A DNA stretch of 39,191 nt from Candidatus Pacearchaeota archaeon (GTDB lineage: Archaea > Nanobdellota > Nanobdellia > Pacearchaeales > GW2011-AR1): the NCBI GenBank assembly GCA_018303995.1, contig JAGVXB010000029.1, forward strand, positions 1-39,191, given 5' to 3'. Under the pieces are notes generated by a model. That model made no database searches. It had not been told where the DNA came from and saw nothing but the letters and a program-made list of their open reading frames with translations. The position numbers were made by a program, and so were the translations under genes. Each line of letters begins with the position of its first letter. Position 1 is the stretch's first letter. This document shows, in pieces, positions 1 through 39,191 of this stretch.

Positions 1-507
1 CGGATGTTTTAGACCCAATAATTGTGGTTGCGACTTGGACCGCTGGGATTACCGCGGCGACTGGCACCAGTCTTGCCCGGTCCTTATTCGTAACACTATC
101 TACATGTCACAAAAGATTTTCAATTATAGAAAATCACTCTGGCTCGCTCTGTCATACTTTCGTACATTGCAGAAAATACTCGACTGCTGCACCCCGTAGG
201 GCTGGGAGTAGTGTCTCAGACTCCCTCTCCGGGCCCCTTCGCTAAAAGCCCGTATGGATCATCGGCTTGGTGGGCCTTTACCCCGCCAACAACCTAATCC
301 ACCGCAGACCCAGTCTATTGCAAATTTTGAGCGCCAACACATTCCAGTAGTCGGCGCCTATCCATTCTTAATCTCAGTTTCCCGAGGGTATCATGGGCAA
401 TAGGGCAGGTTATCTACGTGTTACTGAGCAGTTCGCCTCCTTTCGGAAGACTTGCATGTCTAAGTCAAACCAGATAGCCGCAACCGCCAGCGGGATCAAC
501 TGGATTT
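1..507 (-). rRNA. rrs: 16S rRNA gene, 5' portion (truncated by window start)
   Basis: Reverse complement begins ATCCAGTTGATCCCGCTGGCGG (archaeal 16S 5' end). It contains ACATGCAAGTC, CTCAGTAACACGT, CCTACGGGGTGCAGCAG and GTGCCAGTCGCCGCGGTAA, and GC is higher than in the flanks. The 5' end is accurate to a few nt. Confidence 0.98.
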
Positions 508-32860: not shown

Positions 32861-34009
32861 ATGAAATTCGCGCATCTAGCAGACTGTCACTTAGGTAGCT
32901 GGAGATACCCTGAATTACAGCATTTAAACTTTGAAAGCTTCAAATATGCCTTAGATATGTGTAAAAAAGAAAAAATTGATTTTGTTTTAATAGCGGGCGA
33001 TTTATTCGACTCGGCATATCCCCCAATAGAAATAATAAAAGACACATTTAACGAGTTTAGAAAGTTAAAAGAAGCAAACATACCCGTTTTTATCATAGCA
33101 GGTAGTCATGACTACTCAATTTCAGGAAAAAGCTTTCTAGATGTTCTAGAAAAATCAGGTTTCGCAGTAAATGTATATAAATCAGAAGAAAGAAACGGCT
33201 CGATAATCTTAGAACCCACAATTTACAAAAACGTAGCCATTTACGGTTTCCCAGGTAAAAAAACTGGTCTTGAGGTCTACGATATTCCTAAAATAAGATT
33301 ACAAGATGCTCCAGGATTATTTAAAATTTTAATGCTTCACACAACATTAAAAGACGCACTCCCAACATTAGACATTCCATCAGTAGATAGAAAAATTCTT
33401 CCTCAAGTAGATTACATTGCTCTAGGCCATTTACATCTATTGTACGAAAAAGAAAATGCAGTATATGGAGGTCCAATATATCCAAATAATGCAAGCGAAT
33501 TAGAGGACTTAAAATACGGAGCTTTTTACATAGTCGACACAAATAAAAATATAAAACGTCACAATATAAAATTAAAAGATGTCTTAGTTTTAGACTTAGA
33601 AATAACAGATTCTTTAGAAGGCACTGAAACAATAATCAAAGAATTAAAAAATCAACCATTAAAAGATAAAATACTAATATTAAAATTAAAAGGAGTCTTA
33701 GAACGAGGAAAGATAGTAGACATAAATTTCAACAAAATAGAGGAATTCGCAAGAAGTCAAGGAGTTTTCTGTTTCTTAAAAAACACAACAAAGTTATTCT
33801 TTCCCATTGTAGAAATGGATGTATCTCCTCAAACAGAAGACTTCGAGAAAGAAATAGTAAATAACTTTTGCATAAAAAATCCTCATGAACTAAATAAACA
33901 CATCCCTTTACTGCTGTCAACTCTTAATTTAGAAAAAAAAGAAGATGAAATATCAAGAACATTCGAAGATAGATTATTTGCAGATTCAAAAAGGATATTA
34001 TTCCCATGA
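32861..34009 (+). CDS. mre11: DNA double-strand break repair nuclease Mre11
   Basis: Phosphoesterase motifs ADCHLG, AGDLFD, AGSHD, LMLH and ALGHLH; coupled to rad50. Confidence 0.93.
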   Translation: MKFAHLADCHLGSWRYPELQHLNFESFKYALDMCKKEKIDFVLIAGDLFDSAYPPIEIIKDTFNEFRKLKEANIPVFIIAGSHDYSISGKSFLDVLEKSGFAVNVYKSEERNGSIILEPTIYKNVAIYGFPGKKTGLEVYDIPKIRLQDAPGLFKILMLHTTLKDALPTLDIPSVDRKILPQVDYIALGHLHLLYEKENAVYGGPIYPNNASELEDLKYGAFYIVDTNKNIKRHNIKLKDVLVLDLEITDSLEGTETIIKELKNQPLKDKILILKLKGVLERGKIVDINFNKIEEFARSQGVFCFLKNTTKLFFPIVEMDVSPQTEDFEKEIVNNFCIKNPHELNKHIPLLLSTLNLEKKEDEISRTFEDRLFADSKRILFP

Positions 34010-36069
34010 TTTTCAAAAATATACGCCTGAAGAATATAAGAAGTTACAAAGAAACGGAAATAAAATTCCCGGAAGGAGCAGTCTTATTGGCAGGAGACGT
34101 AGGTTCAGGAAAAACAACAGTTCTTTTAGCCATAGAATATGCCTTATTCGGACTCCAGCCAGGGCAGAGAGGTTCATCGTTATTATCTAACAGCGAAGAA
34201 TATGGCGAAGTATCTTTAGAAATAGATATAGATGGAATAAAAGTTGTAATTGACCGTGGACTTAAAAGAAATGCAAAGTCTATAAATCAAGATTTTGCAG
34301 CAATAACAATAAATGACATTCGTTTCGAGTCGTCTGTAACCGAAGTCAAACAAAAAATAATAGAATTATTGAATTATCCAATGGATTTCGTAAGAAAAAA
34401 TAATCTTGTTTACAGATATACGGTTTACACACCACAAGAAGAGATGAAACAAATAATTATTGAAGATACTGAAGTTCGTTTAGATGTTCTAAGGCATGTA
34501 TTCGGAGTAGACAAATACAAACGCATTCAAGACAACGCACAAAGAATAATAATGTGGATTCGCGAGGAGTCTAGAACTCTTCAGATAGAGTCAGCCCTTC
34601 TAGACGTAAAAAGAAACGAGCTAGACTCAAATCTAAAATTTATAAAAATTCTAGAATCTAAAATATTAGTTAAAGAAGAAGAAATAAAACAATCAAAAAA
34701 CGCTAGAGAAATTCAACAAAAAGAAGTAGATTCTCTGATTCAATTAGTCACTGAAAAAGAAAATTTCAAAAAAGAAATAGAAAAGTCTGCAATAATGGCA
34801 AACAATAAACAAGAACAAATTTCGAGAATTTTAAAAGACATAAAAGAAATAGATGAATCTATAGGAAATACAAAAATACAACCTGAATATACAAAATTAA
34901 GTACAATTCTAGAACAAATATCTAAAACAAAGAAGACTATAGAGTTATTGGACAAAGAATACCTAGATCTGAATTCTAAAAATCACTCGCTAGATATTCT
35001 AAAAAATCAAGAATTAAGTAAAAAAAGCAGGGTCTTTCAAATGAATTTTTGCCCAACGTGTCTTCAAGACGTCCCAGAGGTCCACAAACACAACATCATG
35101 AATGCTACTGAATCAAGCATAAAAGAAATAGAAAAAAATAAAATGGCATTAGCATCAGAAATAACTAGAATAGAAACAGAATTAAAGAAACAAAAAGAAG
35201 ATTTAAAAAATCTCGAGCATGAGCGTATAACAATAGAAATACAGAATGTTAAACAAGAGAATATAGATAAATATATTAAGAAAAAAGAAGAACTTCTAAA
35301 AAATAAGGAGTCAATTGAGAAAGATTTAGTATTGATTAACGAACACATAGACTCGCTAAAAAAACATTCCTTGGAGTATACAAAATTCGAGAATTTATTA
35401 AAAATTAAAAAAGAAGAATTATCAAAAATATTAGAATCGGAACAAAAAAAAGAAATAGAATTTGCAGAAATAAGAAAAGAAACTGAGTTAATAAACAAAG
35501 AAATAAATAAATTAGAAAAAGAAATATACATTGGTGAACGTTCAAGACAAAAATTAATCTCAATGTTAGATATAGAAAACTGGCTTTCAAACAATTTTTC
35601 AAACCTCATCAAATTCACAGAAAAAAATATTCTAATAGCATTAAGAAAAGAATTCACCAAGATCTTCAATAAATGGTTTTCAGTGCTTACAACAGACTCA
35701 TTTGAGGTCTACTTAGACGAAAATTTCTCTCCAGTCATAGTTCACAATGAATTTGAACTGGACTATCAATTCCTTTCAGGAGGAGAAAGAACAGCTGTGG
35801 CGTTAGCCTACAGACTAGCATTAAACCAGCTAATAAATTCAATTTTAAGTAAAATAAAGACTCAAGATGTAATAATTCTAGACGAGCCAACAGAAGGTTT
35901 CTCAGAACAACAATTAGACAAAGTAAGAGATATGCTTCAGGAAATGCATTTAAAACAACTCCTAATAGTCAGCCACGAATCAAAAATGGAAGGTTTCGTA
36001 GACCATGTTATTCGTTTTAGAAAAGTTAACGGAGTTTCGACAGTAGTAGTCGAGAACGATAAAGTTTAG
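34006..36069 (+). CDS. rad50: DNA double-strand break repair ATPase Rad50
   Basis: Walker A GDVGSGKT, coiled coils, zinc hook CPTC, signature LSGGE, Walker B ILDEPT and VSH. Confidence 0.93.
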   Translation: MIFKNIRLKNIRSYKETEIKFPEGAVLLAGDVGSGKTTVLLAIEYALFGLQPGQRGSSLLSNSEEYGEVSLEIDIDGIKVVIDRGLKRNAKSINQDFAAITINDIRFESSVTEVKQKIIELLNYPMDFVRKNNLVYRYTVYTPQEEMKQIIIEDTEVRLDVLRHVFGVDKYKRIQDNAQRIIMWIREESRTLQIESALLDVKRNELDSNLKFIKILESKILVKEEEIKQSKNAREIQQKEVDSLIQLVTEKENFKKEIEKSAIMANNKQEQISRILKDIKEIDESIGNTKIQPEYTKLSTILEQISKTKKTIELLDKEYLDLNSKNHSLDILKNQELSKKSRVFQMNFCPTCLQDVPEVHKHNIMNATESSIKEIEKNKMALASEITRIETELKKQKEDLKNLEHERITIEIQNVKQENIDKYIKKKEELLKNKESIEKDLVLINEHIDSLKKHSLEYTKFENLLKIKKEELSKILESEQKKEIEFAEIRKETELINKEINKLEKEIYIGERSRQKLISMLDIENWLSNNFSNLIKFTEKNILIALRKEFTKIFNKWFSVLTTDSFEVYLDENFSPVIVHNEFELDYQFLSGGERTAVALAYRLALNQLINSILSKIKTQDVIILDEPTEGFSEQQLDKVRDMLQEMHLKQLLIVSHESKMEGFVDHVIRFRKVNGVSTVVVENDKV

Positions 36070-36123
36070 AATTATTATTGAAACATTTGTCCAATATCCA
36101 GTAGGTATTTGAAGATATTCCAA

Positions 36124-37065
36124 TTAGACTGAATATCTTGTTGGTTGTATCATTGAAAGTGTATACCCTCTATCCTCGCTTGTAGTTAGAAGTTCTGTCC
36201 TAAAACCTGCATCAGATAACAATTTCGTAAATGTCCATTCAGTAAACTTAGCTGATCTCCCAAGCAGAATTAACTCATTTTTCTTTAATGTAAAAGACTC
36301 TGAACCGACTTTTACACCAACATCTTTCTTAAGTTTCAACTTAACTTCTATTCTATTTTCATTAGCATTCCAATTAACAACATTTTCAGAATTGCTATCA
36401 TTGAAGCCAATTTTATTTGGTATAAATTTTAGTAAATTTTGCACTATTTCTGCAGTGTAATGGGGAATAAGTTGTTCAGCTTTAACAAGATTAGTCATTT
36501 CCATTCCAATAATTAAATAGTCTTCAGAACTCATAGATTCCAATATGTTTGATAGTACTCTATTCATATCTGAAAAGTTTCCTAAAGTGCTTCCTAAGAA
36601 CAGCAGTAAGTTTGCAGTACTTTCTTTTCTTAAACCATAAATCTTGTCTGAGAATTGTCCAGAATCAAGATCTAACAAAACCTTATCTGAATTTACATTG
36701 AAATCCTTCTTTATCTTTTTCTCTGCTAGGTTTAACATTTCTTCAGAGATATCAACAGGCACATAATTAAACTTAATTTTTTTCTCATTGAGTTTTTCTA
36801 ATATTGGATAAGCTGGTGTTCCATCTCCACAACCAATATCAATAACGTTAAGCTGACCTACCCCTTCATATTTTCTGAGAAAATCTTCAGTTCTTGAACT
36901 TAATAGCTTTCTTTCTATCAAGTTTATTCCTCCTTTTTTTGCTCTTTCTTGAGCAATAGCTACCCAATTATAAGCTCCCTCTCCGAGATAGGCAAACTTT
37001 AAAGGAATCTCTCCCCTTCCTTTAATTGCGGTTAAAAGTTCAAACTCTTGTTTCTTCGTAAACAT
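36124..37065 (-). CDS. SAM-dependent methyltransferase, EgtD/EasF (Methyltransf_33) family
   Basis: IPLKFAY..G, IDIGCGDG, YVPVDISEEML, LFLGSTLGNF, LIIG, WN..RIEV, S.KF and AGF. Confidence 0.8.
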   Translation of the reverse strand: MFTKKQEFELLTAIKGRGEIPLKFAYLGEGAYNWVAIAQERAKKGGINLIERKLLSSRTEDFLRKYEGVGQLNVIDIGCGDGTPAYPILEKLNEKKIKFNYVPVDISEEMLNLAEKKIKKDFNVNSDKVLLDLDSGQFSDKIYGLRKESTANLLLFLGSTLGNFSDMNRVLSNILESMSSEDYLIIGMEMTNLVKAEQLIPHYTAEIVQNLLKFIPNKIGFNDSNSENVVNWNANENRIEVKLKLKKDVGVKVGSESFTLKKNELILLGRSAKFTEWTFTKLLSDAGFRTELLTTSEDRGYTLSMIQPTRYSV

Positions 37066-37217
37066 ATAAAAAGAGATGTATCGCTCTTTATTAACATTTC
37101 TTTACTGACATTTCAAGACTCACTGAACACTTAGTTAGTTTATCGATTAAATTTTCGAACAGGAAAATTTAAATACTCTGTTTAAAGTCTAACTTAAGAG
37201 GTATTTTCTATTTTATA

Positions 37218-37889
37218 ATGGATCAAGAAATTGCAAAGCACGTTCTAAAGACTGGAACGTTAACCATAGGCATAGTCTGCAAAGACGGCATAGTTGTAGC
37301 GGCAGACAGGCGTCAGTCCTACGGTGGTCAAGGTGGAGGCGTTTCATATTTAGCAGGCACAGCAAAAAAAATCTTAGAAGTCACTGATAGAATGGTTGCT
37401 ACAACTGCGGGAACAGCATCAGACACAAGAAAAGTTCTAGAAATTTTAAGAGCAGAATTTAAATTGAAAGAATTAAGAACAAAAGAAAAAATAACCGTTC
37501 CTGAAGCAGCAAGTTTCTTAGCAAACATGGTTTATGGGAACATCCGTACGCCTTCGATAATTCCAAGCATAACTCACTTTATTTTATCAGGATACGACGA
37601 AAAAGGATTGTACTTATATGATATTTCACCGGACGGATATATTCAACAACATGAAACATGTGTTGCGACTGGTAGCGGAATAATGCAAGCACACCCTATT
37701 TTAGACTTAGAATACGAAAAAAACATGAGCTTAGATAAGGGCATCGATTTAGCAACAAAGTGTATTCGTGCGGCAATGGCTCGCGAGCCATCAGTAGGGG
37801 CAGGAATTGACATCTACACAGTTAAGAAAGGTGAAATTAAGCAAGTTGTAGATAAAGAGGTAAGATCTTCTTTTGAAACAGCAAAGTAG
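37218..37889 (+). CDS. psmB: Proteasome subunit beta
   Basis: Propeptide junction KTG|TLTIGIV, AADRR, catalytic Lys in KKI, TGSG and proximity to aCPSF1. Confidence 0.95.
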   Translation: MDQEIAKHVLKTGTLTIGIVCKDGIVVAADRRQSYGGQGGGVSYLAGTAKKILEVTDRMVATTAGTASDTRKVLEILRAEFKLKELRTKEKITVPEAASFLANMVYGNIRTPSIIPSITHFILSGYDEKGLYLYDISPDGYIQQHETCVATGSGIMQAHPILDLEYEKNMSLDKGIDLATKCIRAAMAREPSVGAGIDIYTVKKGEIKQVVDKEVRSSFETAK

Positions 37890-37898
37890 AGTTCTATA

Positions 37899-39191
37899 AT
37901 GAGTGAAATATTGAAAACGATAAAAAGCGAATTGCCAAATGGAGTAGTTAGCGAAGCCATTTTTGAAGGGGCAAACATAGTTTTATACATTTCAGATAAA
38001 GAATTTTTCAAAAAAAGCGACGAAAAAGTTAGAGAAATAGTCCAAAAAGTAAAAAAAAGAATAGAACTTCGCGCCGATAGCAGTATTCTTGCCCCCGAAG
38101 ATGTAACTGAAAAAACAATTCGAGAGTTAGTCCCAGCAGAAGCGGAAATAGAAAGCATAATCTTTGACTTTCCTCGTAGCATCGTAGTCATAGAAGCAAA
38201 ACGCCCTGGAATAGTGATAGGCAAACAAGGTTCAATAATTAAAGACATCAGAGACTCAACAATGTGGACTGCTCAAACACAGAGAAGCCCTGCAATACAT
38301 TCTAAAATAACTGAAAAAATAAGGGCAGTTTTATATGCAAATAACAATTACAGAAAAAAATTCCTTAATGAAATAGGAAAGAAAATATATGAAAATTGGA
38401 ATCCTGAAAAGATGGATATGTGGGTCAGATTAACATATTTAGGCTCAGGAAGACAAGTAGGTCGTTCATGTTTATTGCTTCAAACTCCAAAATCGAAAAT
38501 AGTCTTTGATTGCGGAATAAACCCTGGAATAATAGAAGGTCCCGAAAAGTTTCCTTATCTAGATGTTTCAGAAATTGGAGACCTTGGTTCTATCGACGCT
38601 ATAGTATTATCGCATGCTCATCTTGACCACTGTCTTCCCCCTAATTATCCAGTTCTGACTGAAAATGGTTACAAAAAAATAGACGACATTCAAGTAGGTG
38701 AAAACGTAATCTCTTTAGATTGGCATACAGGCAAATATATTCCTTCAAAAGTTACAGAAAAAACCCAAACGACAGGTCATAAAAAAGTACTCTCTATCAA
38801 AACCCCTTATTCAAGAATAGAATCTTCTCCAAATCACAGGTTTTTCATTGTTGAAGATTTAAAAATAAAGGAAGTAGAAGCTTCAGAATTAAAGAAAGGC
38901 ACTCTTTTGCCATCAAACCTTCTGCATAAACCTTCAAGTGAATCTAATAAAGTTATTCTTGAAACAAATATAGATTATGATTCAAGGAGAAAAGATATTG
39001 TATCTCTTCCAAAAGAACTGACTCCCAAGTTAGCTGAATTTATTGGCTATTATATGGGCGATGGCCATAAATCTTCAGAGTTTTCATTGAGATTAACAGA
39101 TGCGCATATTCCAATATTAGAGCATCATAAAAAAGCAATCAAAGAATTATTTAATTTTGATGCAATAATCAGACATCATCCAGACAGAACA
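37899..39191 (+). CDS. fttA: aCPSF1/FttA KH-domain beta-CASP ribonuclease (transcription termination factor), intein-containing, truncated by window end
   Basis: Own translation, open to the window end: MSEILK..FEGANIVLY..KKRIELRAD..IEAKRPGIVIGKQG..WVRLTYLGSGRQVGRSC..FDCG..IDAIVLSHAHLDH. Absent from the ORF track because no stop falls in the window. Confidence 0.95.
   Translation, partial: MSEILKTIKSELPNGVVSEAIFEGANIVLYISDKEFFKKSDEKVREIVQKVKKRIELRADSSILAPEDVTEKTIRELVPAEAEIESIIFDFPRSIVVIEAKRPGIVIGKQGSIIKDIRDSTMWTAQTQRSPAIHSKITEKIRAVLYANNNYRKKFLNEIGKKIYENWNPEKMDMWVRLTYLGSGRQVGRSCLLLQTPKSKIVFDCGINPGIIEGPEKFPYLDVSEIGDLGSIDAIVLSHAHLDHCLPPNYPVLTENGYKKIDDIQVGENVISLDWHTGKYIPSKVTEKTQTTGHKKVLSIKTPYSRIESSPNHRFFIVEDLKIKEVEASELKKGTLLPSNLLHKPSSESNKVILETNIDYDSRRKDIVSLPKELTPKLAEFIGYYMGDGHKSSEFSLRLTDAHIPILEHHKKAIKELFNFDAIIRHHPDRT
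38631..39191 (+). mobile_element. Intein with LAGLIDADG homing endonuclease in aCPSF1 (N-terminal part)
   Basis: Block A CLPPNYPVLT..G.KKI.DI..GE.V; block B IESSPNHRF (His codon 38835); V.ASELKKG; block C LAEFIGYYMGDG (39030-39065). Confidence 0.93.

What the first reader, a model, noticed from the sequence alone, without database searches (positions are those of the whole stretch)
38610..39191. LAGLIDADG intein inserted right at the metal-binding motif of aCPSF1/FttA
Seen: the frame from ATG 37899 reads SHAHLDH and then, at codon 245 (38631), switches to CLPPNYPVLTENGYKKIDDIQVGENV. Intein block B (SPNH, with Ser in place of the usual Thr of TxxH) and a LAGLIDADG block (LAEFIGYYMGDG) follow. 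Known: HxHxDH is metallo-beta-lactamase motif 2 and is normally followed by C/S-G, which supplies the +1 nucleophile. Most described inteins sit in replication/recombination or nucleotide-metabolism proteins. Inference: a still-mobile intein occupies the archaeal transcription-termination nuclease, so termination would depend on splicing, a possible conditional switch. I cannot say whether this insertion site is already catalogued.
Basis: partly seen in the sequence, partly recalled or inferred. Interest (0 to 1): 0.82.

Follow-up and report, generated by a model that had tools for sequence, protein, structure and literature searches.

The report
Intein inside archaeal termination nuclease aCPSF1
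A self-splicing protein element (an intein with a homing endonuclease) sits in the metal-binding site of the archaeal transcription-termination nuclease aCPSF1/FttA; it is an ordinary kind of intein, in a host protein and site for which I found no published description.

Summary
The ORF from 37899 reads as aCPSF1/FttA up to HAHLDH (38613-38630). It then switches at 38631 to an intein with Cys1, block B SPNH and a first LAGLIDADG motif, and runs off the contig end at 39191. The rest is not in this assembly.

A congener (G013) has the intact 1141-aa gene: a 510-aa intein ending VVHN, then SGLIPYLY. Empty alleles read HLDH|SGLIPYLY. The intein is in 3 of 17 congeners, and each carrier's nearest relative is empty. 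At least 3 of 400 phylum genomes and 23 species-representative loci carry it, as does one Asgard-named protein. Catalytic residues of splicing and endonuclease are conserved in 49-52 of 52 sequences. Intein and extein trees conflict (p-AU 1.5e-8), so the intein has moved between lineages.

aCPSF1 also carries inteins at two other sites, beside MBL motifs 3 and 4. Ten full-text searches found no paper on any of this.

One caveat: another assembly holds an identical 431-aa N-part, but its frame breaks 4 codons past the window's end, and a second ORF carries the intein's end and the C-extein. The proposed conditional switch was not tested.

Verdict: a new member of a known kind, of moderate interest.

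The parts
37899..38630 (+). N-extein of aCPSF1/FttA (244 codons): two KH domains and the start of the metallo-beta-lactamase domain
   Evidence: Pfam KH_TffA matches residues 2-64, KH_2 residues 77-120 and Lactamase_B residues 187-245. TIGR03675 matches profile positions 2-253.
38613..38630 (+). MBL motif 2, HAHLDH. Its last His is the -1 residue of the intein.
   Evidence: The -1 residue is His in 51 of 51 aligned intein-bearing relatives.
38631..39191 (+). Intein, first 187 residues only. It is cut by the contig end; full relatives are 505-515 aa.
   Evidence: It is 71% identical to the G013 intein over residues 1-187 (E 3.1e-84).
38631..38669 (+). Splicing block A, CLPPNYPVLTENG, with the Cys1 nucleophile
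   Evidence: C1 is present in 52 of 52 aligned sequences.
38817..38846 (+). Splicing block B, IESSPNHRFF (Ser-x-x-His)
   Evidence: His is present in 52 of 52. The position three residues before it is Ser in 49 and Thr in 3.
39030..39065 (+). First LAGLIDADG motif of the homing endonuclease, LAEFIGYYMGDG, with the acidic residue in GDG
   Evidence: Asp is present in 52 of 52. The second motif lies beyond the contig end; it is seen in G008 and G013 as LRGFADAEG.

Best explanation
The window holds the 5' 1293 nt of the single aCPSF1/FttA gene of a small-genome DPANN-type archaeon. The gene is interrupted by a canonical class-1 intein of about 510 aa that carries a two-motif LAGLIDADG homing endonuclease. 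The intein lies between the last His of MBL motif 2 (HxHxDH) and the Ser that follows.

Inferred mechanism. The precursor is translated as one chain. Cys1 makes the thioester, helped by the block-B Ser-x-x-His. The +1 Ser attacks it. The terminal Asn, helped by the penultimate His and the block-F Asp, cyclises and releases the intein. The exteins are rejoined to HLDH-SG, which completes the metal site. Nuclease and termination activity should therefore appear only after splicing.

The endonuclease part would cut empty alleles at the HLDH|SG-coding site and copy the intein in. The intein has spread between lineages in the past and probably can still do so.

Shown here: the sequence anatomy, exact restoration of the host sequence in orthologs, conservation of the catalytic residues, patchy distribution and the conflict between intein and extein trees. 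Inferred: splicing, endonuclease activity and the dependence of termination on splicing. In this genome the 3' part is not assembled.
For: Anatomy in the window.

Full-length ortholog: G013 has a 1141-aa open frame. Its intein is residues 245-754, CLPPQY...NIVVHN, followed by SGLIPYLYKMGY. In Pfam it matches Intein_splicing (65.3 bits), LAGLIDADG_3, Beta-Casp and RMMBL. TIGR03675 scores 779 bits against a cut-off of 580.

Empty alleles: 14 of 17 congeners read H.H.DH followed by S (13) or V (1) and G/A.IPYL.

Conservation across 52 aligned sequences: C1 52/52, block-B His 52/52, HN 52/52, block-F Asp 52/52, LAGLIDADG acids 52/52 and 49/52. The +1 residue is Ser in 32 and Cys in 19.

Relation to solved inteins: a profile of the intein matches PI-PfuI at 2.9e-24, VMA inteins at 4.5e-17, and CDC21 and DnaB mini-inteins.

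Spread: 50 of the 55 hits to the intein are aCPSF1 proteins. 23 of 24 species-representative loci show HxHxDH|C.

Patchiness: three changes are needed on the N-extein tree, and one clade is rejected at p-AU 8.9e-5.

Past transfer: 29 close inteins form one branch side (support 100) in the intein tree. Holding the same 29 together is rejected by the extein data (p-AU 1.5e-8).

Single beta-CASP gene: G013 and G004 have one Beta-Casp match each.

Junction: it is bridged by contigs of 4 runs.

C-terminal end near this population: P0218 reads ...NIIVHN|SALIPYLYKM and continues to the end of the C-extein.
Against: The window itself shows only 187 intein residues. Blocks F and G, the second LAGLIDADG motif and the C-extein are not in the 83%-complete assembly.

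In another assembly the identical 431-aa N-part (P0219) goes out of frame 4 codons further on and stops at residue 466. This is a deduced deletion of about 98 nt in the endonuclease domain.

Among near relatives, P0220 has VNN instead of VHN at the intein's end. P0021 lacks blocks F and G.

The three congeneric inteins are no more alike than their hosts at third codon positions (48-55% against 50-60%), so there is no sign of recent transfer among them.

No splicing or cleavage was tested.
Confidence: 0.85

Rival explanations
1. In this population the gene is really broken inside the intein by a deletion of about 98 nt that shifts the frame in the endonuclease domain. That would make it a null or decaying allele of aCPSF1.
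For: P0219 is identical to the window ORF at 431 of 431 residues. It continues with KNAH, then 31 residues that are the +1 frame of codons about 468-500, then a stop. P0218 starts at residue 503 of the intact relative. Both list a longest contig of 53257 nt. The window's contig ends 4 codons before the break.
Against: aCPSF1 was found in 41 of 41 relatives and is the only Beta-Casp match in G013 and G004, so a fixed null allele is unlikely. An intact 1141-aa version exists in the same 90% cluster (P0220). I could not see the DNA of that contig, so an assembly error or a minority variant is not excluded. That the two ORFs share one contig is inferred only from the equal contig length.
Confidence: 0.1
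2. The intein is a fixed, no longer mobile passenger. Its endonuclease is inactive, and the patchy pattern comes from old vertical descent with repeated precise losses.
For: The congeneric inteins are 69-76% identical, against 83-93% for the N-exteins, and their third-position identity is similar to the hosts'. Mini-inteins without an endonuclease occur at the same site: L056 (175 aa), L055 (163 aa), P0065 and P0072.
Against: The endonuclease acid residues are kept in 52/52 and 49/52 sequences and Lys303 in 52/52. The intein and extein trees conflict strongly. P0005 carries an intein 186/187 identical to the window's in an N-extein that differs at 37 of 244 residues (Fisher p 4.5e-9), although that protein could be a chimeric assembly.
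Confidence: 0.25
3. The junction is an assembly chimera: an aCPSF1 5' end joined to an intein fragment from another gene.
For: The contig ends inside the intein. The genome holds at least five other intein loci. Run contigs are fragmented here by related strains.
Against: The same junction, HxHxDH|CLPP, is seen in G008 and G013, in 23 of 24 further loci and in 51 of 51 aligned proteins. Contigs of 4 runs span it with 0 differences.
Confidence: 0.02

Closest known systems
PI-PfuI (Pyrococcus furiosus RNR intein, PDB 1dq3) and archaeal VMA inteins (7qss, 7qsu)
   Same: These are class-1 inteins with a two-motif LAGLIDADG endonuclease inserted between splicing blocks B and F. The intein profile matches 1dq3 at E 2.9e-24 across the N-splicing, endonuclease and C-splicing parts, and the VMA inteins at about 5e-17.
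   Different: The host protein and site differ: here it is aCPSF1 after HxHxDH. Sequence identity is low; a single-sequence search gives only 1e-4 to 8e-8. Between the endonuclease and block F there is an extra segment of about 150 aa, which matches no Pfam HTH family at E <= 0.01 in G013.
RadA and aRF1 inteins of DPANN archaea (nearest non-aCPSF1 relatives)
   Same: After the 50 aCPSF1 proteins, these are the next-best hits to the intein: P0053, P0054 and P0056 carry RadA/Rad51 domains and P0055 carries eRF1 domains, at 25-36% identity. In the phylum sample, ORFs of about 800 aa match at 31-34%.
   Different: The hosts differ and there is a large E-value gap (2.5e-16 or weaker, against 8.8e-47 or stronger for the aCPSF1 inteins). 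That L032 is aRF1 is my own reading of its sequence and was not tested with Pfam.
Conditional-splicing inteins (P. horikoshii RadA intein; redox-trapped Cys1/Cys+1 inteins)
   Same: These are also inteins placed in a catalytic motif of an essential protein, so activity waits for splicing. For PMC4513877 I saw only the search listing and the start of the abstract. The redox trap is recalled.
   Different: Nothing here shows any condition-dependence. In this genus the +1 residue is Ser, so no Cys1/Cys+1 disulfide is possible. Cys+1 occurs in 19 of 51 relatives.
Natural split inteins (Nanoarchaeum equitans PolB, cyanobacterial DnaE; recalled)
   Same: If the P0219/P0218 arrangement is real, the gene would be divided inside the former endonuclease region. 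The N-part would carry blocks A and B, and the C-part blocks F and G.
   Different: The two ORFs would be adjacent rather than dispersed. The halves keep large endonuclease remnants and an out-of-frame tail. The evidence is gene calls from one other assembly only.

Membership tests
Intein (class 1, HINT splicing domain) | A Cys/Ser nucleophile as the first residue, directly after the host sequence (block A) | tested here: met
   Cys245 at 38631 follows HAHLDH. C1 is present in 52/52.
Intein (class 1, HINT splicing domain) | Block B T/S-x-x-H | tested here: met
   SPNH lies at 38826-38837. His is present in 52/52; Ser in 49 and Thr in 3.
Intein (class 1, HINT splicing domain) | C-terminal His-Asn followed by a Ser/Cys/Thr +1 nucleophile (blocks F and G) | tested here: inconclusive
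   This lies beyond the contig end, so it is not in the window. It is met in G013 (VVHN|S), in 52/52 aligned sequences, in 22 of 24 loci and in P0218, the likely continuation from another assembly.
Intein (class 1, HINT splicing domain) | Removing the element restores the uninterrupted host sequence seen in empty alleles | tested here: met
   G013 reads HLDH[intein]SGLIPYLYKMGY. Empty congeners read HLDHSGLIPYLYKMGY.
Intein (class 1, HINT splicing domain) | Pfam Intein_splicing scores above the gathering score | tested here: met
   The window fragment scores 38.5 bits against 35.8. G013 scores 65.3 bits over residues 252-754.
Intein (class 1, HINT splicing domain) | HINT fold, and splicing shown by experiment | not testable with these tools
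No bench test was possible.
LAGLIDADG homing endonuclease (two-motif, intein-borne) | Two LAGLIDADG motifs, each ending in an acidic residue | tested here: inconclusive
   The first motif, with Asp, is in the window (39030-39065). The second is beyond the contig end. In G008 and G013 it reads LRGFADAEG. The acids are conserved in 52/52 and 49/52. Pfam LAGLIDADG_3 scores 52.1 bits in G013 but was not listed for the window fragment.
LAGLIDADG homing endonuclease (two-motif, intein-borne) | Site-specific cleavage of the empty allele | not testable with these tools
   There is only indirect support: the patchy distribution and the intein/extein tree conflict.
aCPSF1 / FttA (TIGR03675, arCOG00543) | N-terminal KH domains plus MBL, beta-CASP and RMMBL domains, scoring above the equivalog cut-off | tested here: met
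   The window part matches profile positions 2-253 at 249.5 bits. That is under the whole-protein cut-off only because the protein is truncated. The ortholog G013 scores 779.3 against 580.2 and has the Beta-Casp and RMMBL domains.
Split intein | Two separately translated genes, each bearing half of the splicing domain, that trans-splice | not tested
   Only the gene calls P0219 (466 aa) and P0218 (639 aa) from another assembly point this way. I saw no DNA, no reads and no expression data.

The most novel reading that the evidence does not exclude
In the window's own population the aCPSF1 gene is physically divided inside the intein's endonuclease domain by a frame-shifting deletion of about 98 nt. 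The two adjacent ORFs would be N-extein plus blocks A/B, and blocks F/G plus C-extein. Together they would still make the essential termination nuclease by protein trans-splicing. That would be a split intein caught at birth, in the same superphylum as the Nanoarchaeum split PolB.
Probability: 0.06. Interest if true: 0.8.

Novelty: new member of a known kind. Interest (0 to 1): 0.45.

Why it matters
[quoted passage not shown] I saw this only as a title in the reference list of PMC12713403. The Novikova et al. survey says that core transcription and translation components contain few inteins (PMC4760082, passage seen).

Here the gene turns out to be a repeated intein target. It has three insertion sites, each next to a metal-binding motif (2, 3 or 4) of the MBL domain. 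The carriers are named in their records as Nanoarchaeota, Woesearchaeota, Pacearchaeota, Aenigmatarchaeota and Iainarchaeum, and one protein is named as an Asgard archaeon.

This has three practical consequences:
- There is a new extein context for intein biochemistry, with splicing that rebuilds a di-metal site.
- Length- or model-based annotation mislabels these genes as 'LAGLIDADG family homing endonuclease' or 'hypothetical protein'.
- The site offers a marker for gene flow among uncultured DPANN archaea.

The mechanism itself is ordinary intein biology, and any regulatory role is speculation.

Tried and rejected
- **Rest of the gene in the assembly.** I searched the own genome with Beta-Casp, ran tblastn with the full G013 protein and looked for contig-end overlaps. 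None found it. The LAGLIDADG ORF at the end of C6 is a free-standing gene that overlaps the end of C21. It is not the continuation.
- **Extending the contig with public runs.** The contigs stop at 39122 and nothing goes on beyond. No loose end at 38630/38631 was among the 24 listed (68 more were not shown). So there is no evidence either way for an empty allele in the same samples.
- **Composition.** The intein is 0.31-0.35 GC and the extein 0.34-0.38, which gives no useful signal.
- **Species-representative scan with a wide 7-sequence alignment.** Only two peptide patterns were used, so the count of 23 is a lower bound.
- **Viral contigs.** One weak hit at 23% identity. No aCPSF1 intein was seen on viral contigs.
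- **Reverse AU test.** Testing the intein data against the extein-defined 15-row clade did not finish in time and I did not repeat it.
- **Literature.** Ten full-text searches: intein with aCPSF1, CPSF, beta-CASP, FttA, metallo-beta-lactamase+archaea, Woesearchaeota or Nanoarchaeota; inteins with DPANN or Asgard; and the title of the Novikova survey. None gave a paper describing this insertion. Passages read in PMC12713403, PMC3553952, PMC4760082, PMC3296008, PMC9348778 and PMC4390880 do not mention it. InBase and the papers' supplements (for example the protein list of PMC4760082) could not be seen and may list it.

Full report
**Observation**

The window is the whole of contig C32 of an 887-kb, 38-contig, 33%-GC genome that is 82.75% complete. 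The ORF that starts at ATG 37899 is open to the last base, 431 codons in all. Residues 1-244 are the N-terminus of aCPSF1/FttA. Pfam finds KH_TffA, KH_2 and Lactamase_B. NCBIfam's aCPSF1 equivalog TIGR03675 matches profile positions 2-253.

After HAHLDH (38613-38630) the frame reads CLPPNYPVLTENG from 38631. IESSPNHRFF follows at 38817-38846 and LAEFIGYYMGDG at 39030-39065. Pfam Intein_splicing passes its gathering score even on this fragment, 38.5 against 35.8 bits.

Contigs from four public runs cross the junction without a difference, so the join is not peculiar to this assembly. The best holder may, however, be the source sample.

**What follows the contig end**

The remainder is not in this assembly. 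There is no Beta-Casp match, no tblastn match to a full-length ortholog beyond C32 and no overlapping contig end. Run contigs stop at 39122.

A congener, G013, carries the intact gene as a 1141-aa open frame. Its intein spans residues 245-754 (510 aa) and has a second LAGLIDADG motif (LRGFADAEG) and block F/G (...YLVDIEVESHNFIAGNIVVHN). It is followed directly by SGLIPYLYKMGY and the complete MBL, beta-CASP and RMMBL C-extein. TIGR03675 scores 779 bits against a cut-off of 580. G008 has the same junction and is also cut by a contig end. The 14 other congeners read H.H.DH, then S (13) or V (1), then G/A.IPYL, with genes of 631 codons where complete. The insertion is thus exact.

**Membership**

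I aligned 52 sequences: the G013 intein, 45 of the 50 aCPSF1 hits, and 6 of the 9 long site-a representatives. I left out P0003 (the same sequence as G013), P0005, P0013, P0021 and P0052. One search gives these counts:

| Position | Count |
|---|---|
| Cys1 | 52/52 |
| Block-B His | 52/52 |
| Residue three before the block-B His | Ser 49, Thr 3 |
| Block-F Asp | 52/52 |
| His-Asn terminus | 52/52 |
| -1 His | 51/51 |
| +1 residue | Ser 32, Cys 19 |
| First LAGLIDADG acid | 52/52 |
| Second LAGLIDADG acid | 49/52 |
| Lys303 | 52/52 |

A profile of seven inteins matches PI-PfuI (E 2.9e-24), VMA inteins, and CDC21, DnaB and TFIIB mini-inteins.

**Distribution**

- *Genus.* The intein is present in 3 of 17 genomes, and aCPSF1 itself in 41 of 41 relatives.
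- *N-extein tree.* Each carrier is sister to an empty allele: G000-G004 (support 90/88), G008-G003 (100/98) and G013-G007 (100/98). Three changes are needed, and a single clade is rejected (p-AU 8.9e-5).
- *Phylum.* In a sample of 400 genomes at least 90% complete, 8 matched the intein at E <= 1e-20. Three of them carry it in aCPSF1. The other 5 are ORFs of about 800 aa in other hosts. This is a lower bound, since only 3 candidates per genome were scored and mini-inteins would be missed.
- *Species representatives.* A pattern scan gave 24 loci, 23 of them with HxHxDH|C. Their titles name Nanoarchaeota, Woesearchaeota, Pacearchaeota, Iainarchaeum and Aenigmatarchaeota. One (L052) is titled a complete genome.
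- *Asgard.* P0059, with the same junction, is named by NCBI as aCPSF1 of a Kariarchaeaceae archaeon.
- *Existing names.* IMG already labels two such proteins 'predicted metal-dependent RNase/intein/homing endonuclease'. The sequences are therefore public and recognised by machine.

**Mobility**

In the intein tree, the 29 inteins most like G013's form one side of a branch with support 100. That group was defined's ranking before any tree was built. The extein data reject holding those 29 together (delta lnL 187.7, p-AU 1.5e-8). For example, P0034 has exteins 41-45% identical to the others but an intein 54-58% identical. In 128 of 1275 pairs the intein is at least as similar as the extein. The intein has therefore crossed between lineages.

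Within the genus there is no sign of recent transfer. The inteins are 69-76% identical against 83-93% for the N-exteins, with similar third-position identity.

One protein, P0005, has an intein part 186/187 identical to the window's while its N-extein differs at 37 of 244 residues (Fisher p 4.5e-9). This could mean recent homing or recombination. However, the protein comes from a source without contig data, ends in an out-of-frame tail, and looks mosaic. A chimeric assembly is not excluded.

**A caveat about this population's gene**

The window's ORF belongs to a 90%-identity cluster that holds three relevant members:
- P0219 (466 aa) is identical to the window ORF at 431/431 residues. It then reads KNAH, 31 residues and a stop.
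- P0218 (639 aa) begins at residue 503 of the intact form. It runs through ...NIIVHN|SALIPYLYKM to the end of the C-extein.
- P0220 is an intact 1141-aa relative. It differs from the window ORF at 11/244 N-extein and 1/187 intein residues, but has VNN at the intein's end.

P0219 and P0218 both list a longest contig of 53257 nt. P0219's tail is the +1 frame of codons about 468-500, which I checked on the DNA of an 88%-identical relative. That assembly therefore has a deletion of about 98 nt in the endonuclease domain, starting 4 codons after the window's last codon.

The break may be an assembly error, a minority variant, a real null allele, or a gene split inside the intein. The window's contig ends just before it, which fits a fork in the assembly graph at that place. 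A stretch that co-occurring relatives share almost exactly would explain the end equally well (P0004, P0005 and P0220 are identical over residues 432-488).

The downstream sequence does return to aCPSF1 with a proper HN|S block. Its frame, however, is not proven intact in this population.

**Function**

The following is inferred from established intein chemistry (recalled). Cis-splicing would rejoin His244 to Ser and complete motif 2. The unspliced precursor has 510 residues between the motif-2 ligands and the rest of the MBL fold and is expected to be inactive.

G013 and G004 each have a single Beta-Casp match, so no paralog is seen to cover for it. Both genomes are incomplete, at 89% and 73%.

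Nothing supports or refutes a conditional switch. In this genus the +1 residue is Ser.

**Beyond the finding**

aCPSF1 has two further insertion sites:
- Site b lies between Y and TGD of motif 4 (P0062, P0067, P0095).
- Site c lies after NAGHxLG of motif 3 (P0069).

Both are confirmed by Pfam, with Intein_splicing at 91 and 95 bits. One Aenigmatarchaeota-titled locus (L055) carries a 163-aa mini-intein at site a and a LAGLIDADG intein of about 505 aa at site b in one 1295-codon frame.

**Literature**

Ten full-text searches and passages read in six papers gave no description of an intein in aCPSF1/FttA. InBase and the papers' supplements could not be consulted.

**Verdict**

This is a real, canonical intein in a host protein and site that I could not find described. 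It is a new member of a known kind and of moderate interest.

Noticed in passing
window 1-506 (- strand): The other end of the contig is the 5' 506 nt of an archaeal SSU rRNA gene (model positions 1-521 of 1478), cut off at the contig start. Both contig ends therefore break inside conserved or mobile-element-prone genes.
   Followed up: no
G000 contigs C14, C33, C37, C38, C35: This 0.89-Mb genome holds at least five more intein loci. By my reading of the frames they lie in a ribonucleotide reductase (C14, mini-intein), an SMC ATPase at its P-loop (C33, 1510-aa frame), GyrB (C37), RadA (C38), and a frame in C35 interrupted by TAA/TAG stops. I did not test the hosts with Pfam.
   Followed up: partly
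G000 C21:23220-23963 (+) and C6:92927-93367 (-): The last 32 residues of the open frame at the end of C21 are the same as the first 32 of the frame entering C6 from its end. The two contigs seem to join through a free-standing LAGLIDADG endonuclease gene that is not an intein.
   Followed up: no
P0062, P0067, P0095 (site b); P0069 (site c); L055:1763-5647: aCPSF1 has two more intein insertion sites, next to MBL motifs 4 and 3. One locus carries inteins at two sites at once: a 163-aa mini-intein after HxHxDH and a LAGLIDADG intein of about 505 aa before TGD.
   Followed up: partly
L056:1748-4198; P0065, P0072: Mini-inteins without an endonuclease occupy the same site a: 175 aa in L056, and two representatives of about 300 aa that lack LAGLIDADG motifs. 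This is the usual end-stage of the homing cycle.
   Followed up: no
L027 (G016), codon 245 of its aCPSF1: One empty congeneric allele has Val instead of Ser/Cys right after HLDH. It has no nucleophile, so an intein inserted there could not splice.
   Followed up: no
P0021 (917 aa): A Pacearchaeota-named protein keeps the HLDH|CLPP junction and the endonuclease but lacks blocks F/G and the +1 Ser (...NIKQRD then GLIPYLY). It also lacks the first 200 or so residues, so it is a decayed allele or an assembly fault.
   Followed up: no
L032:922-3279 (G130); P0055: A related LAGLIDADG intein (about 31% identity) sits in what reads like release factor aRF1, next to the GG of the GGQ region. P0055 carries eRF1 Pfam domains together with intein domains.
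   Followed up: no
P0058, L028, L030, L031 (intein variants of 570-587 aa): A subgroup of the site-a inteins has an extra XRE-type helix-turn-helix of about 65 aa between block B and the first LAGLIDADG motif (Pfam HTH_3 at 28 bits; profile match to C.BclI at 2.2e-6). It is absent from the window's genus.
   Followed up: partly
window 34006-37889: The neighbours are a Rad50/SbcC-like ATPase (34006-36069, +), a histidine-specific SAM methyltransferase family gene (36124-37065, -) and a proteasome subunit (37218-37889, +), which ends 9 nt before the aCPSF1 start. The ATPase-proteasome-aCPSF1 order is the same in G008 and G013.
   Followed up: partly
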